Shown: piece by piece, positions 46,500-49,800 of the stretch
Layout: every line of letters starts with the position of its first letter
How positions within the stretch are numbered: the first letter of the stretch is position 1
UHGV virus genome: UHGV-0167633
DNA length: 64,000 bases
Strand: one strand, 5' to 3'
Source of the DNA: a virus
Program-made: the position numbers and the translations under genes
Notes under the pieces: model-generated
Told to the model about the DNA's origin: nothing
What the model saw: the letters and a program-made list of their open reading frames with translations, nothing else
Database searches by the model: none

Positions 46500-47078
46500 A
46501 TGTTGCGCTTTACTGAGGAAGAGTTTCAGGCTTTTAGTGAGCGTCGAAATAAGGGGCGGTCCAGGCCAAAAACCAAAAAGGATCCATTCTTATCGCTTGC
46601 GCCGGTAAAAGAAGTTTCTCCACATGCGAAGGCACTTGCAGCACTGGCAAAGAACCCCGACCTGCGCGACGGAAATTGCGAGCACTTCGAGCAGGTTTTC
46701 ATTTTTGATTACTTCGAACGCAAGCACCCTGACATCTATGAGCTGTTGCATGCAACGCCTAACGGAGGGAAACGTTCAAAAGCAACCGCCGGGAAAATGA
46801 AGGCTGAAGGGCAGAAAAAAGGTTATCCGGACATGAGTCTCGATAAAGCATGCGGTATTTATCACGGCATGCGAATTGAGCTTAAAGAACCAAATGGTAA
46901 AGCCCCGACGAAAGAGCAGATCGCCTGGATGCGCAGGCTTAGAGAGGAAGGTTACTACGTCGTTCTTGCGTATGGTGCAGAACAAGCGATAACCGCCATC
47001 CTGGAATACATGAACCTTAAAAAGGGTGAGGCTATTGAGCATGTATTGAACGGTGATAAGTGGTTGTACGCTACGTGA
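46500..47078 (+). CDS. VRR-NUC-type nuclease-like protein
   Basis: 192-aa ORF; GYPDMSL...E.K...YVVLAYGAEQA pattern typical of VRR-NUC PD-(D/E)xK domain. Confidence 0.5.
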   Translation: MLRFTEEEFQAFSERRNKGRSRPKTKKDPFLSLAPVKEVSPHAKALAALAKNPDLRDGNCEHFEQVFIFDYFERKHPDIYELLHATPNGGKRSKATAGKMKAEGQKKGYPDMSLDKACGIYHGMRIELKEPNGKAPTKEQIAWMRRLREEGYYVVLAYGAEQAITAILEYMNLKKGEAIEHVLNGDKWLYAT

Positions 47079-47241
47079 AATAATAAATTAATTAGTGCAT
47101 GTGTGCTCTTTGATATAGCGCACATTAACATCGGGAGAATAATCGTGTCATCCAAGGCTAATTATGAATCGCTGGCATCGATCATGCCGCGTAATGAACA
47201 GGAAACAGATGCTGTAGTGGACCCTGTAATCGCTGAAATGA

Positions 47242-47904
47242 ATGCTCGCCTGGAGGCTGAATTTGCAGCTGAGAATGAACATACCACCCAGGGCGACTAG
47301 GACTGTTTTTTGTGTCGGTAGCGGTCCGTCACTCACTCGTGAGGACTGTACTGCTATAGAAAAAACTGGCTGTTCAATCATCGCGGTTAACAATTCCTGG
47401 CAGATGTTCGATGACATTTATGCCTTATACGCCGGTGATTTGTCATGGTGGAAGCAATACGGATCCACCATACCGGGAGGGAGATTCCGCAAAGTGACAG
47501 CCAACCTGGCGGCGGCGAAATCATTTTCGTTGGAGTACAGGCGATATTGTGGACCGGCTGAAGGGGTTAATAGCGGCGCGCAGGCTATCAGTCTGGCGGC
47601 TGAATCAGGGGCTGAAGTAGTTGTATTAGTCGGCTATGACTGTTCTCTGCAAAACGGCCTTCATTGGCATGGAGCACACCCTCAAGCCCTACGGAATCCA
47701 ACGCAGGTGTCTATTTCAAAATGGCAACAGCAGTTCCTGGATACCCGCAAAAAACACGCAGATTTACATATTTTGAATGCAAGTAGGAGCAGTGCAATTC
47801 AATGTTTCCCAAGAATAAATTTAGAGGCAGTGATCGCGTTATTATCGTCGGCAGTGGCCCAAGCGCCGCAAACTTTGTTGCGCCGCGCGGAGTGCCGATT
47901 ATAG
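47242..47904 (+). CDS. DUF115/MptE-like Rossmann protein, paralog 1
   Basis: 220-aa ORF; VGSGPS ... IAVNNSW ... NSGAQAISLAAESGAEVVVLVGYDCS. Confidence 0.4.
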   Translation: MLAWRLNLQLRMNIPPRATRTVFCVGSGPSLTREDCTAIEKTGCSIIAVNNSWQMFDDIYALYAGDLSWWKQYGSTIPGGRFRKVTANLAAAKSFSLEYRRYCGPAEGVNSGAQAISLAAESGAEVVVLVGYDCSLQNGLHWHGAHPQALRNPTQVSISKWQQQFLDTRKKHADLHILNASRSSAIQCFPRINLEAVIALLSSAVAQAPQTLLRRAECRL

Positions 47905-48428
47905 CGGTCAATGGGGCCATCGACTGGCTGAACCGCGCTTCTTATTTTTTCACACTTGATCCATCGCCAGACAATATGCGGCGCGTTGGTCGTGGCCGCC
48001 GTCGCCGTGGTGTTTGTTATTGCATGGCACTACCCGATGTTAAAGAACGTGAAGTCAGAGACGGCGTTCTGTGCTTCCGTCGTGTGGCTGAACGTGGCAT
48101 GGAGCCAAAAAATACGAATTCTCCCGAGTGGTGGGCGTGGCGCTGGTCCGCACATTTCGGACTTTGCGAAGATGAGAATGAAATTGCCAGCGGCAATAGT
48201 GCATATGGCGCTCTGAACCTGGCTTTCCATATCGGATTCAAACATGTCGCCCTGGTGGGCGTTGACGCTACACAAGAACCACGCGTTCACTCCGGCGGCA
48301 CGCCAAAAAATCTAAGTCACCTGCCTTTGTTATTCCAGTCTGCGCGTGAACAGATTGACGTTGTTTCATGCGGGAAAATGGGAGGCATTCCGCAGATGAC
48401 TCTTAAAGAATGGCTGAAGAATACATGA
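47802..48428 (+). CDS. DUF115/MptE-like Rossmann protein, paralog 2
   Basis: 208-aa ORF; VGSGPS ... IAVNGAIDW ... [26 protein letters not shown]; overlaps paralog 1 by ~100 nt out of frame. Confidence 0.4.
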
Positions 48429-49102
48429 TGGCACCCACAATTTATCACCGTATCGACGGTACCAAATACAGGAATGTCTGGGTTGTTGGTGATCTGCATG
48501 GTTGCTACACCAGACTGATGTCCGAACTCCATCGTGTGGATTTTGACCCGGCGCAGGATTTACTGATATCGGTCGGCGACCTTATCGATCGCGGTACTGA
48601 AAATGTCGAATGTCTGGAACTATTGCAGATGCCCTGGTTCAGGGCAGTGATGGGGAACCATGAGCGGCTGATGATTGATGCGTTAAGTCCAGATGGCAAC
48701 GTGAATAACTGGCTAATGAATGGCGGACAATGGTTCTTCATGCTGGACACTGATCAGGAAATATTAGCCTGGGCGCTGGTGGAGCTGGTAAAGCGTCTGC
48801 CCTATATCATTGAGTTGAACACCGGGCAAGAAACTATCGTTATAGCCCATGCCGACTATCCGGATAATGAATACCAATTCGGTAAGGAGGTGCCGCTTTT
48901 CAACGTTGTCTGGGCGCGCGAGCGTATCAGTGATTCGATGGATGATATTGGTGGCGAAATTTCGGGCGCAGATCGTTTTATCTTTGGTCACACTCCGGTG
49001 AAAAGCCCGAAGACATTCTGGAATCAGCAGTATATCGACACTGGTGCCGTATTTTGCGGAAACCTGACATTGATGAAAGTGAAAGGTGATGGTGCAGCAT
49101 GA
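48410..49102 (+). CDS. ppp: Ser/Thr protein phosphatase (lambda-PPase-like metallophosphatase)
   Basis: 230-aa ORF; GDLHG, GDLIDRG, GNHE metallophosphatase motifs. Confidence 0.75.
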
Positions 49103-49800
49103 AGATTGCTTTAGTTTTTCGCTCTGGTGGTGACTATAACGCTTCCGATGTGCAGTGGTTGGTTAATCAACTGCCAAAAGGCTATGAAATTATTTGCCTG
49201 ACAGACCTGAAGCGTTTACATGTACCTGGCGTCAAAGTTGTCCCATTGATCAACCAGTGGCAAAAGTGCCGTGGCTGGTGGGCGAAAATAGAGTTGTTCC
49301 GACCGGATATAACAGATGATCTGTTCTATCTGGATTTGGACACAGTTATTGCCGGTGATATACGCCCAATCCTTGAGAATCCACCAACCAGCTTCACCAT
49401 GCTTAGGGATTTTTACCATCCACATTATCGTGGTAGCGGTGCCCTGTGGATACCAAATAGTGTAAAAGCGCATATCTGGAGTTCATTCTGGCAAGATCCG
49501 GAAGGTTGGATTTCTCGTTGTGTCACTACTGAGTGCTGGGGTGATCAGGGGTTCTTACGGAAGGTTATGGGCGATGATACACCAGCATTTCAGGATCTGT
49601 ATCCAGGATGGTTTGTAAGTTACAAGGCCGATGTTGTGGAACCTGGTTCAAAATATGCGAGCGCGCGTTACTCCAGGGGGAATGGGGCATTACCAAAGGA
49701 CTGCCGAATAATCTTTTTCCACGGCAAACCGCGACCTCGCGAAGTGTCAGAGGATTGGCTTCCCCTTATTAGCTCGTTTTTTGAGCGAGAATCAGAATAA
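49099..49800 (+). CDS. glycosyltransferase-like protein (GT-A-type DXD motif)
   Basis: 233-aa ORF coupled to ppp; [13 protein letters not shown]. Confidence 0.4.

What the first reader, a model, noticed from the sequence alone, without database searches (positions are those of the whole stretch)
46500..49800. Cluster of nuclease, two DUF115/MptE-like paralogs, Ser/Thr phosphatase and GT-A-like glycosyltransferase
Adjacent plus-strand genes encode a VRR-NUC-like nuclease, two overlapping paralogs with the GSGPS / NSG...LVG.D Rossmann pattern of DUF115 (a family linked to glycan or pterin transfer), a lambda-type phosphatase and a DXD-motif GT-A-like protein. A GT-B-like gene lies separately after ban (40309-41307). 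Together they suggest a glycosylation or modification pathway acting on DNA or virion proteins.
Basis: inference. Interest (0 to 1): 0.5.

Follow-up and report, generated by a model that had tools for sequence, protein, structure and literature searches.

The report
Portable phage glycosyltransferase module in P1
The region is the pmgM–pmgQ stretch of a P1-type phage, and three of its genes (pmgO, pmgP, pmgQ) plus the distant gene dbn form a set of soluble sugar-transferring enzymes that travels as a unit, sometimes fused, among unrelated phages and some bacterial chromosomes; it most likely decorates proteins with a short glycan, but its target has never been tested.

Summary
The window is a P1-like phage, 98–99% identical to P1, P7 and RCS47. 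All the genes described exist at the stated coordinates.

**Gene identities**
- PmgM is a VRR-NUC nuclease.
- PmgO and PmgP are distant paralogs (hhalign probability 97.8%) with a DUF115/Maf/sialyltransferase-like fold.
- Ppp is a lambda-type phosphatase.
- PmgQ is a GT8-like (glycogenin-like) GT-A enzyme.
- Dbn is a weak GT-B match.

**What belongs together**
- Only PmgO, PmgP, PmgQ and probably Dbn form a unit.
- PmgP and PmgQ homologs lie within 4 kb of each other (mostly adjacent) in most informative non-P1 loci, across Proteobacteria, Bacteroidota and Gemmatimonadota.
- O–P, P–Q, Q–P and methyltransferase fusions occur.
- In coliphage EP_H11 the gene order is O–P–Dbn–Q.
- Ppp and PmgM accompany the trio only in P1-like elements. 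Phage D6 has ppp without the trio.

**Where the module sits**
- After the major capsid gene in three prophages.
- Beside lysis or terminase genes, or next to nucleotide-metabolism genes in lytic phages.
- In one chromosomal island, interleaved with Ig-like (Big_1) adhesin genes.

**Reading**
My best reading is a cytoplasmic multi-enzyme glycosylation module acting on protein. CMP-Kdo and UDP-hexose are the inferred donors. The target is unknown. P1 knockouts show no plaquing defect, and the P1 cryo-EM paper I searched contains no mention of glycans. RefSeq already labels these genes as glycosyltransferases. The module concept is, as far as I could find, new.

The parts
40309..41307 (+). dbn. 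A GT-B-like (GT4-like) putative glycosyltransferase and the last gene of the C1-controlled ban operon. Probable fourth enzyme of the module.
   Evidence: Pfam Glycos_transf_1 E 3.3e-5, 23.9 bits, below the cut-off of 26.4. RefSeq note: 'possible glycosyltransferase'. Its homolog (phmmer E 9.7e-97) lies between PmgP and PmgQ homologs in phage EP_H11. A homolog (E 1e-60) lies 3 kb from a Q–P pair in Buttiauxella locus L100. No PDB sequence match.
46500..47078 (+). pmgM. A stand-alone VRR-NUC nuclease and probable Holliday-junction resolvase. It is a neighbour, not part of the glycosyltransferase module.
   Evidence: PDB 4QBL 'VRR-NUC' E 7.7e-17. PHROG 5702 Holliday junction resolvase E 9e-27. 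Pfam VRR_NUC 21.3 bits against 23.8. Found only in P1-like loci. It lies upstream of operator Oppp in the pmgL–pmgM unit.
47085..47101 (-). C1 repressor operator Oppp (Op83), with the predicted promoter PpmgN. It marks the start of the pmgN–pmgQ operon.
   Evidence: Annotated in P1 AF234172 at 79435-79451. The window sequence read has 4 mismatches to the operator consensus, so it is not among the hits found at up to 3 mismatches.
47103..47300 (+). pmgN (P7 hdmA). A small acidic protein of unknown role and the first gene of the operon. It is restricted to P1-like elements.
   Evidence: PHROG 2350 E 1.1e-45, function unknown. Homologs were found only in P1-like loci. CRISPRi scored it essential, but the deletion is non-essential.
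47242..47904 (+). pmgO. A DUF115/Maf-like (sialyltransferase-like) putative glycosyltransferase, paralog 1.
47802..48428 (+). pmgP. A DUF115/Maf-like putative glycosyltransferase, paralog 2, and the most widespread member of the module.
   Evidence: hhalign against the PmgO family: probability 97.8%. Family size: 636 representatives at E<=1e-3 among 1.84 billion. Fused to PmgQ-type domains in P0220, P0286, P0303 and P0269. Motifs SGPS / IAVNGA / TLD / GNSA..G.D are shared with WaaZ and CstII.
48410..49102 (+). ppp. A lambda NinI/PrpA-type Ser/Thr protein phosphatase. It is inserted in the operon but is not a conserved partner of the module.
   Evidence: Metallophos E 9e-16. NCBIfam PRK11439 E 3.3e-81. 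Absent from every non-P1 module. Present in D6 without O/P/Q. Non-essential.
49099..49800 (+). pmgQ. A GT8-like (glycogenin/Gat1/LgtC-like) GT-A glycosyltransferase, predicted to be a retaining UDP-hexose transferase.
   Evidence: Profile against PDB: 6MW5 E 7.7e-7, glycogenin E 3.5e-3. AF2 pLDDT 94.5. Foldseek: 159 PDB hits at E<=1e-3, and the top 50 listed are all GT8 enzymes or GT8-domain proteins. Invariant DLD, GDQ, SYK and FHGxPRP motifs. No Pfam hit.

Best explanation
PmgO, PmgP and PmgQ, probably with Dbn, are a portable set of soluble cytoplasmic glycosyltransferases. They act together, probably as a complex, to build a short glycan on a macromolecular acceptor during lytic growth. 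The acceptor is most likely one or more proteins, either virion-associated or another phage-specified protein.

The proposed steps are all inferred:
1. The two DUF115/Maf-like enzymes transfer an ulosonic acid from a CMP-activated donor. In E. coli K-12 the only such donor is CMP-Kdo.
2. The GT8-like PmgQ and the GT-B-like Dbn add hexoses from UDP-sugars.
3. In other phages, extra GT-A enzymes or sugar-type methyltransferases elaborate the glycan further.

The module carries no sugar-biosynthesis, flippase or polymerase genes, so it must draw on the host nucleotide-sugar pool. In P1 both operons (ban–dbn and pmgN–pmgQ) carry C1 operators, so the enzymes are made on derepression.

PmgM (nuclease) and Ppp (phosphatase) are unrelated neighbours. 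What is shown: the folds and motifs, the paralogy, the conserved linkage and the fusions. What is inferred: the donors, the acceptor and the biological benefit.
For: **Enzyme class**
- PmgQ is GT8-like with a complete DXD/GDQ/H-G-x-P motif set.
- PmgO and PmgP are homologous.
- None of the proteins has a hydrophobic segment (maximum KD19 < 1.6).

**Functional linkage**
- PmgP and PmgQ homologs lie within 4 kb of each other, mostly adjacent, in most informative non-P1 loci. Hosts include Citrobacter, Pseudomonas, Ochrobactrum, Zhongshania, Brevundimonas, Methylophilaceae, Sinomicrobium, Longimicrobiales, Xanthomonas jumbo phage XacN1 and coliphage EP_H11.
- Fusions: O–P (P0091), P–Q (P0220, P0286), Q–P (P0303), Q–P–methyltransferase (P0269) and TylF-methyltransferase–Q (XacN1 ORF373).
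- A Dbn homolog lies inside the module in EP_H11.
- Glycan-cluster accessories: a fourth GT-A-like family, and FkbM or class-I methyltransferases.

**Protein as the acceptor**
- The module sits directly after the HK97-type major capsid gene in Ochrobactrum, Pseudomonas and Zhongshania prophages.
- It follows collagen-repeat proteins in two alphaproteobacterial loci.
- It precedes a 1088-aa PKD-domain protein in XacN1.
- In Pseudescherichia it lies in a non-phage chromosomal island, interleaved with five Big_1/Invasin_D3 proteins including a 1169-aa inverse autotransporter.

**Donor plausibility**
- Maf enzymes expressed in E. coli O-glycosylate Ser/Thr with Kdo from the host CMP-Kdo pool (PMC11339370).
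- Every host seen is an LPS-bearing diderm.
Against: - No experiment shows any glycan on a P1 protein. The P1 cryo-EM paper (baseplate map at 3.2 Å; PMC12810830) contains no occurrence of 'glycos' or 'glycan' in its text. This is an absence of mention, not a test.
- Single deletions and CRISPRi knock-downs of pmgO, pmgP, pmgQ and dbn give no plaquing or antirestriction defect.
- Both P1 proteins score below the Pfam gathering threshold.
- In several lytic phages the module lies next to ribonucleotide reductase and other DNA-metabolism genes (L102, L115, XacN1, EP_H11). That position would also fit a nucleic-acid target.
- The restriction to diderm hosts may reflect how the search was seeded.
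Confidence: 0.5

Rival explanations
1. The module modifies lipopolysaccharide or another glycolipid. The DUF115 enzymes would act like WaaZ and add extra Kdo to the inner core. PmgQ would act like the GT8 core enzymes WaaO, WaaJ or LgtC. The effect would be to alter the surface of infected cells or lysogens, for example masking receptors.
For: - The precomputed Pfam table lists a faint PF27901 WaaZ_KDO_III hit on the O–P fusion protein.
- WaaZ shares the SGPxS / IIAVNG / G.D motif order with PmgP (BLASTP local E 1e-4; sequence read).
- PmgQ's fold matches LgtC and other GT8 enzymes, and it aligns weakly with WaaJ (hhalign E 3.3e-4, probability 38%).
- All hosts are LPS-bearing.
- LPS core transferases are also soluble or peripheral proteins.
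Against: - The WaaZ similarity is weak (hhalign probability 10–14%).
- PmgQ's best profile and fold matches are protein-linked GT8 enzymes (Gat1, glycogenin, GlyE), whereas its alignment to WaaJ and WaaO is weak; these comparisons used different methods.
- In prophages the module is embedded in late structural or lysis operons, not near att/int as conversion genes usually are.
- It also occurs in strictly lytic and jumbo phages.
- Inference: LPS made late in infection has little time to reach the surface.
- The Pseudescherichia island links the trio to adhesin genes, not to waa genes.
Confidence: 0.15
2. The module glycosylates phage DNA or a nucleotide precursor, to evade restriction or other DNA-targeting defences.
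For: - Phage glycosyltransferases are known to glucosylate phage DNA (reviewed in PMC12619734).
- In L102, L115, XacN1 and EP_H11 the module lies beside ribonucleotide reductase, ligase, Pol-X, ThyX or dNMP-kinase genes.
- P1's operon is derepressed early.
Against: - Neither the window nor the temperate prophages carrying the module encode a base-hydroxymethylating enzyme near it.
- From established knowledge: P1 DNA is a standard substrate for restriction and sequencing, with only methylation known.
- P1 ΔpmgO, ΔpmgP and ΔpmgQ show no change in plating on EcoK, EcoA or EcoB hosts.
- The chromosomal adhesin island and the position after capsid genes do not fit a DNA target.
- From my own knowledge, the characterised DNA glycosyltransferases are GT-B-like, not DUF115 or GT8.
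Confidence: 0.07
3. PmgO and PmgP are not glycosyltransferases. They would be pyrophosphokinase-like or other small-molecule enzymes of the MptE/TPK superfamily. The module would then make or consume a small metabolite, for example a signalling nucleotide or a sugar derivative used in counter-defence.
For: - The Pfam family is named after MptE.
- The knockouts have no phenotype on laboratory hosts that lack most defence systems.
Against: - The weak sequence-level PDB matches that recur in the two conserved motifs are to CMP-sugar transferases: CstII, Lst and Maf.
- The constant partners are bona fide glycosyltransferase folds (GT8, GT-B, GT-A) and sugar-type methyltransferases, to which these proteins are even fused.
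- No PADLOC hit.
Confidence: 0.1
4. All five adjacent genes (nuclease, two DUF115 paralogs, phosphatase, GT-A) form one pathway, as the first reader grouped them.
For: The genes are adjacent and share a strand in P1-like elements. ppp lies inside the pmgN–pmgQ operon.
Against: - PmgM and Ppp homologs are absent from all non-P1 modules.
- A C1 operator and promoter separate pmgM from pmgN.
- D6 has ppp amid nin-like genes without the trio.
- PmgM is a stand-alone VRR-NUC resolvase type.
Confidence: 0.04

Closest known systems
Maf (motility-associated factor) flagellin O-glycosyltransferases (DUF115 / PF01973)
   Different: PmgO and PmgP are about 200 aa and consist of the core only, without the N- and C-terminal domains of the 632-residue Maf chain in the PDB (target length). 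From knowledge of the Maf structure, those domains are thought to engage flagellin. They occur as a paralog pair. They are linked to GT8 and GT-B enzymes, not to flagellin or nonulosonate-biosynthesis genes. Neither activity nor acceptor has been tested.
Mycobacteriophage virion glycosylation (Freeman et al. 2023, as summarised in PMC12619734)
   Same: Both involve phage-encoded glycosyltransferases that use host sugar donors. In the mycobacteriophage case glycans are attached to capsid and tail-tube subunits. Here the module lies directly after the major capsid gene in three prophages.
   Different: The enzyme families differ (DUF115 + GT8 + GT-B here). The hosts here are Gram-negative. No glycan has been demonstrated on any virion that carries this module. 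The P1 cryo-EM paper I searched does not mention any.
LPS core glycosyltransferases WaaZ (KdoIII transferase, GT73) and WaaO/WaaJ/LgtC (GT8)
   Same: The combination is the same: a DUF115-like CMP-Kdo enzyme type plus GT8 hexosyltransferases. WaaZ shares the PmgP motif order. LgtC is among PmgQ's fold matches.
   Different: The similarity is only at superfamily level (hhalign probability 10–38%). The module is phage-borne and lies in late or early lytic operons. It is not associated with waa genes.
Glycogenin / Gat1 / GlyE (protein-directed GT8 enzymes)
   Same: These are the best sequence-profile and fold matches of PmgQ (6MW5 E 7.7e-7; glycogenin; GlyE). The DXD, GDQ and C-terminal His motifs are shared.
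   Different: PmgQ is about 15% identical to them and falls below every Pfam GT8 model. The C-terminal motif is FHGxPRP rather than HxxGxxKPW. The acceptor is unknown.
T4-type DNA glucosyltransferases
   Same: Both are phage-encoded soluble glycosyltransferases that use host UDP-sugars.
   Different: From my own knowledge, T4 a- and b-glucosyltransferases have a GT-B fold and require hydroxymethylated bases. I saw no hydroxymethylase gene with this module in P1 or the prophages.

Membership tests
GT8 glycosyltransferases (PmgQ) | GT-A fold resembling glycogenin/LgtC | tested here: met
   The AF2 model has pLDDT 94.5. Foldseek gave 159 PDB hits at E<=1e-3; the top 50 listed are all GT8 enzymes or GT8-domain proteins: Gat1, glycogenin, GlyE, LgtC, XXYLT1, LARGE1, WbbM.
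GT8 glycosyltransferases (PmgQ) | DXD metal/nucleotide-sugar motif and the downstream GDQ-type and C-terminal His motifs | tested here: met
   D79, L80, D81, G148, D149, H208, G209, P211 and P213 are invariant across 24 homologs. DLD and GDQ align to the glycogenin and Gat1 motifs.
GT8 glycosyltransferases (PmgQ) | Score above the Pfam Glyco_transf_8 gathering threshold | tested here: not met
   No Pfam family matched at E<=0.1. The relationship is visible only with a profile (E 7.7e-7) or by fold.
GT8 glycosyltransferases (PmgQ) | Retaining transfer of hexose from a UDP-sugar | not testable with these tools
   Requires an enzyme assay.
DUF115 / MptE-like (PF01973) (PmgO, PmgP) | Pfam model above the gathering score | tested here: not met
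   P1 PmgO scores 22.8 bits and PmgP 20.9 bits against a cut-off of 34.6. The fused homolog P0091 passes with 44.6 bits, and several homologs carry a precomputed PF01973 assignment.
DUF115 / MptE-like (PF01973) (PmgO, PmgP) | Rossmann-like core fold shared by Maf, MptE, GT42/GT29 sialyltransferases and TPK | tested here: met
Maf flagellin glycosyltransferases | Large multidomain protein with flanking domains around the DUF115 core | tested here: not met
Maf flagellin glycosyltransferases | Genomic linkage to flagellin and CMP-nonulosonate biosynthesis genes | tested here: not met
   No such genes appear in any of the loci surveyed.
GT42 CstI/CstII sialyltransferases | Significant sequence match to CstII, including the catalytic His region | tested here: inconclusive
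   There are recurrent but weak matches (E 0.02–0.6), confined to the GNGPSL and SG..LGY..GID motifs. The RefSeq/PHROG label 'alpha-2,3-sialyltransferase' should not be read as a functional assignment.
WaaZ / GT73 KdoIII transferase | Sequence-profile membership | tested here: inconclusive
   A faint precomputed PF27901 hit on P0091. hhalign probability 10–14%. BLASTP local E 1e-4 over 36 residues.
VRR-NUC nucleases (PmgM) | Homology to a solved stand-alone VRR-NUC domain, with a PD-(D/E)xK-type motif | tested here: met
   4QBL E 7.7e-17 over residues 77-179. GYPD...IELK aligns with GYPD...IEIK.
Lambda-type Ser/Thr protein phosphatases (Ppp) | Metallophosphoesterase domain above threshold and close similarity to PrpA/PrpB/NinI | tested here: met
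   Metallophos scores 59.3 bits against 21.5. PRK11439 matches at E 3.3e-81; its 272 bits fall below the equivalog cut-off of 326, so it is related to PrpA but not the same protein. PHROG 246 NinI-like E 5e-113.
GT4-type GT-B glycosyltransferases (Dbn) | Glycos_transf_1 domain above threshold | tested here: not met
   23.9 bits against 26.4. The EP_H11 homolog scores 24.5 bits.
Phage virion glycosylation systems | A glycan demonstrated on virion proteins and dependent on the phage glycosyltransferases | not testable with these tools
   Needs mass spectrometry of virions. The only bearing evidence is indirect: gene position after capsid genes, and no mention of glycans in the P1 cryo-EM paper I searched.

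The most novel reading that the evidence does not exclude
P1 and many other phages of Gram-negative bacteria carry a dedicated system that O-glycosylates proteins with Kdo taken from the host CMP-Kdo pool. A pair of minimal Maf-like enzymes performs the transfer, and GT8 and GT-B enzymes extend the glycan with hexoses. A 2020 preprint abstract describes Ser/Thr-O-Kdo as a linkage previously unknown in any organism, and it was observed there as promiscuous activity of Maf enzymes (bioRxiv 10.1101/2020.06.03.131540; PMC11339370). A natural system would therefore be a new class of protein glycosylation. It could be a way for phages, and for some bacterial adhesins, to mask or stabilise surface-exposed proteins.
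Probability: 0.15. Interest if true: 0.8.

Novelty: new variant of a known kind. Interest (0 to 1): 0.5.

Why it matters
P1 is among the most used phages in genetics, yet these genes are still labelled 'putative morphogenetic function'. Recognising pmgO, pmgP, pmgQ and dbn as one portable, sometimes fused glycosyltransferase module yields a concrete and cheap test: mass spectrometry of virions, LPS and DNA from existing knockouts.

If the target is protein, this would extend phage virion glycosylation beyond mycobacteriophages, where it is documented, to Gram-negative hosts. It could also reveal a natural Kdo-based protein glycan. That would bear on how phages are recognised by immune systems and defence systems, and on glyco-engineering in E. 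coli.

If the target is LPS or DNA, it would be a new enzyme set for that purpose.

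Tried and rejected
- **Single-sequence PDB searches** with PmgO and PmgQ gave nothing significant. The PmgP profile against PDB gave no hit at all.
- **hhalign of A2 against A3** was first dominated by the O–P fusion protein in A2. I repeated it without that protein.
- **A joint alignment headed by the fusion protein**, intended for modelling both domains at once, failed. MAFFT stacked both families on the C-terminal domain. I modelled PmgO alone instead; PmgP and Dbn were not modelled.
- **The viral-contig scan** returned only P1-like copies and added nothing about context.
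- **WaaZ membership** could not be established.
- **PADLOC** gave no hits.
- **The P1 proteome, knockout and cryo-EM papers** contain no data on glycans or on these proteins beyond non-essentiality.
- **Papers not held in the library:** Freeman 2023 and Pyle 2024.
- **Ideas rejected:**
  - The nuclease and phosphatase do not belong to the pathway.
  - The 'alpha-2,3-sialyltransferase' database label is not a literal function, because (from knowledge of its genome) E. coli K-12 makes no CMP-sialic acid.

Full report
**Identity of the region**

The window is a P1-type phage or phage-plasmid. Positions 46200-50100 are 99.4% identical to phage RCS47 and 98–99% identical to P1 and P7. Using the P1 and P7 records, the genes are:

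| Gene | Window coordinates |
|---|---|
| pmgL | 46252-46497 |
| pmgM | 46500-47078 |
| pmgN | 47103-47300 |
| pmgO | 47242-47904 |
| pmgP | 47802-48428 |
| ppp | 48410-49102 |
| pmgQ | 49099-49800 |

- A C1-repressor operator (Oppp, window 47085-47101) and a predicted promoter lie between pmgM and pmgN.
- pmgL–pmgM (late promoter LPpmgL) and pmgN–pmgQ are therefore separate units.
- The GT-B-like gene at 40309-41307 is dbn, the last gene of the ban operon. That operon is controlled by the bivalent C1 operator Obanab.

**Check of the observation**

- **PmgM** matches the solved stand-alone VRR-NUC protein 4QBL (E 7.7e-17). Its Pfam score is just below threshold.
- **PmgO and PmgP** both give sub-threshold MptE-like/DUF115 hits.
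  - BLASTP between them finds only the GSGPS…AVN segment.
  - Profiles of the two families, with the fusion protein removed, align over 160 columns at hhalign probability 97.8%, E 1.3e-12.
  - They are real but old paralogs.
- **Ppp** is a lambda NinI/PrpA-type phosphatase.
- **PmgQ** has an invariant DLD motif.
- **Dbn** gives a weak Glycos_transf_1 hit, and RefSeq already notes it as a possible glycosyltransferase.
- **Existing labels.** RefSeq and PHROG already call pmgQ 'glycosyltransferase' and pmgO 'alpha-2,3-sialyltransferase'. The bare annotation is therefore not new.

**What the proteins are**

*PmgQ*
- A profile of 24 homologs hits the GT8 enzymes Gat1 (6MW5, E 7.7e-7), glycogenin and GlyE.
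- Its AlphaFold model (pLDDT 94.5) gave 159 PDB hits at E<=1e-3; the top 50 listed are all GT8 enzymes or GT8-domain proteins, including LgtC.
- The invariant motifs WWxK, DLD, GDQ, SYK and FHGxPRP correspond to the GT8 nucleotide-sugar and metal site.
- It is only distantly related to the host's own GT8 core enzymes (WaaJ hhalign probability 38%).

*PmgO*
- The fold alone cannot separate glycosyltransferase chemistry from pyrophosphokinase chemistry.
- Weak sequence matches recur in the same two motifs of CMP-sugar transferases: CstII, Lst and Maf.
- WaaZ, the host KdoIII transferase, shows the same motif order (SGPTS, IIAVNGSA, SGLDLT), but only with weak statistics.

*Shared properties*
- None of the proteins has a transmembrane-like segment.
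- Both paralogs keep a full set of invariant polar residues, so I infer that both are active.

**What belongs together**

This is the main result. I retrieved loci by PmgP similarity from one genome per species, from assemblies and from isolated phages. I then scanned all ORFs with HMMs of the three families and with the other P1 proteins.

*Linkage of PmgP, PmgQ and PmgO*
- Outside P1-like elements, PmgP and PmgQ homologs lie within 4 kb of each other, mostly adjacent, in most loci with enough flanking sequence. PmgO is present in most of them.
- Examples:
  - Citrobacter rodentium prophage: O-P-Q
  - Pseudomonas prophage: O-P-Q
  - Ochrobactrum prophage: P-Q
  - Zhongshania: O-P-methyltransferase-Q
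  - Brevundimonas: O-P-Q
  - Methylophilaceae: P-Q
  - Sinomicrobium (Bacteroidota): O-Q-P-FkbM methyltransferase
  - Longimicrobiales (Gemmatimonadota): Q…P
  - Xanthomonas jumbo phage XacN1: O-P-(TylF methyltransferase~Q)
  - Coliphage EP_H11: O-P-Dbn-Q
- Exceptions are two alphaproteobacterial loci (L104, L107) with an O-like gene alone, and two Rhizobiales loci (L105, L106) with divergent O-like and Q-like genes but no P.

*Gene fusions*
- Searching the PmgP profile against 1.84 billion representatives gave 636 hits at E<=1e-3.
- The long hits include P–Q fusions (P0220, P0286), a Q–P fusion (P0303), a Q–P–methyltransferase fusion (P0269) and a methyltransferase–P fusion (P0309).
- The O–P fusion P0091 is followed by a Q homolog (hhalign E 1.6e-49) in an unrelated phage contig.
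- Fusions in both orders, together with conserved adjacency across phyla, are strong evidence that O, P and Q act in one process, probably as a complex.

*Genes that do not belong*
- PmgM, PmgN and Ppp homologs were found only in P1-like loci.
- Phage D6 has ppp among nin-like genes and no PmgP.
- The nuclease and the phosphatase are therefore neighbours, not pathway members.

*Dbn*
- A Dbn homolog (E 9.7e-97) sits exactly between P and Q in EP_H11.
- Another (E 1e-60) lies 3 kb from a Q–P pair in Buttiauxella.
- In P1 both operons carry C1 operators.

*Accessory genes*
- Other modules carry a fourth small GT-A-like family and sugar-type methyltransferases.
- These are what one expects in a glycan-assembly cluster.

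**What the module acts on (inference)**

The module has no sugar-nucleotide synthesis, flippase or polymerase genes, and all its proteins are soluble. It must therefore use host nucleotide sugars on a cytoplasmic acceptor.

*Context favouring protein*
- In three prophages the module lies directly after the HK97-type major capsid gene and before the head-completion genes.
- In a lambdoid prophage it lies between the lysis genes and terminase. In another phage it lies after the lysis cassette.
- In two alphaproteobacterial loci an O-like gene follows a collagen-repeat protein.
- In XacN1 the module precedes a 1088-aa PKD-domain protein.
- In Pseudescherichia and related genomes the trio lies in a non-phage chromosomal island. 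It is interleaved with five Big_1/Invasin_D3 proteins, including a 1169-aa inverse autotransporter, and the island is flanked by ordinary chromosomal genes.

*Known parallels*
- Maf enzymes and several GT8 enzymes (glycogenin, Gat1, GlyE) glycosylate proteins.
- Maf enzymes expressed in E. coli attach Kdo to Ser/Thr using host CMP-Kdo.
- From established knowledge, E. coli K-12 has no other CMP-activated sugar. If PmgO and PmgP are CMP-sugar transferases, CMP-Kdo is the obvious donor.
- All hosts seen are LPS-bearing diderms, though the search was seeded from a proteobacterial sequence.

*Evidence against, or missing*
- No glycan is known on P1 proteins. The P1 cryo-EM paper I searched (baseplate map at 3.2 Å) contains no occurrence of 'glycos' or 'glycan'; its tail fibres and several flexible parts are unresolved.
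- Deletions and knock-downs of these genes have no plaquing or antirestriction phenotype.
- In several lytic phages the module lies beside ribonucleotide reductase or other DNA-metabolism genes. That is also compatible with a nucleic-acid target.

*Rivals I keep*
- LPS or glycolipid modification, WaaZ-like.
- DNA glycosylation.
- A non-glycosyltransferase small-molecule role.

**Comparison with known systems, and novelty**

- The module works most like a cytoplasmic O-glycosylation system of the Maf type combined with GT8 and GT-B extension.
- It resembles the mycobacteriophage virion glycosylation systems in concept.
- It is not a member of the Maf family: the flanking domains and the flagellin linkage are absent.
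- It is not demonstrably a member of GT42 or of GT73/WaaZ.
- PmgQ is GT8-like by fold and motifs but falls below the Pfam models.
- I found no paper describing this module or any function for these genes.
- I therefore rate it a new variant of a known kind: real and conserved, with an experimentally easy but still open question about its target.

Noticed in passing
window 47802-47904: pmgO and pmgP overlap by 103 nt in different frames. Both reading frames encode family-conserved residues there: the PmgO C-terminal CFPRxxLE motif, and the PmgP N-terminus up to GSGPS. In other phages the overlap is 4–50 nt, and in one contig the two genes are fused.
   Followed up: partly
window 46252-46497: PmgL is a DksA/TraR-like zinc-finger protein (PHROG 54, E 1.6e-12). 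It is expressed from a P1 late promoter together with the VRR-NUC nuclease PmgM.
   Followed up: no
window 47103-47300: pmgN was scored essential by CRISPRi but non-essential by deletion (PMC10695390). This could be a polar effect on the operon or an off-target effect. The protein is small and acidic and is restricted to P1-like elements.
   Followed up: no
window 51437-51943: Pap is a HAD-type phosphatase of the polynucleotide kinase-phosphatase (PNKP) kind (Pfam PF25109, E 3.8e-12). The P1 record labels it only 'putative P1 acid phosphatase'.
   Followed up: no
L112 2236-18532 (also L089-L093): Pseudescherichia and related Enterobacteriaceae genomes carry a chromosomal island. In it, PmgO, PmgP and PmgQ homologs are interleaved with five Big_1/Invasin_D3 proteins, including a 1169-aa inverse autotransporter. 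The island is flanked by LysR, MFS and MscS genes. This may be a glycosylated adhesin system.
   Followed up: partly
L003 11757-12335; L111 11254-11835; L096 8636-9184: A fourth family of small proteins (about 190 aa), weakly matching nucleotide-diphospho-sugar transferases, follows the trio in three unrelated phages. Mutual phmmer E-values are 1e-22 to 1e-33. P1 has no homolog.
   Followed up: partly
L118 6630-7946 (Xanthomonas phage XacN1 ORF373); P0269; P0309: Methyltransferase domains (TylF-like or class I) are fused to PmgQ-like or PmgP-like domains. FkbM or class-I methyltransferase genes are inserted in the module in Sinomicrobium and Zhongshania. This suggests methylated sugars in some versions of the glycan.
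   Followed up: partly
phage phi456 (OR339795), homolog of window ~47100-47900: An IS element (InsB) lies between pmgM and pmgP in phage phi456, and the megablast match starts only at query position 566. At least pmgO therefore appears dispensable for a viable phage.
   Followed up: no
window 13861, 16355, 32430, 35952/35963, 46178, 49802/49851, 51943, 61530: There are ten matches to the C1 operator consensus at up to 3 mismatches, against 0.37 expected by chance. The annotated Oppp at 47085-47101 has 4 mismatches and is missed by that scan.
   Followed up: partly
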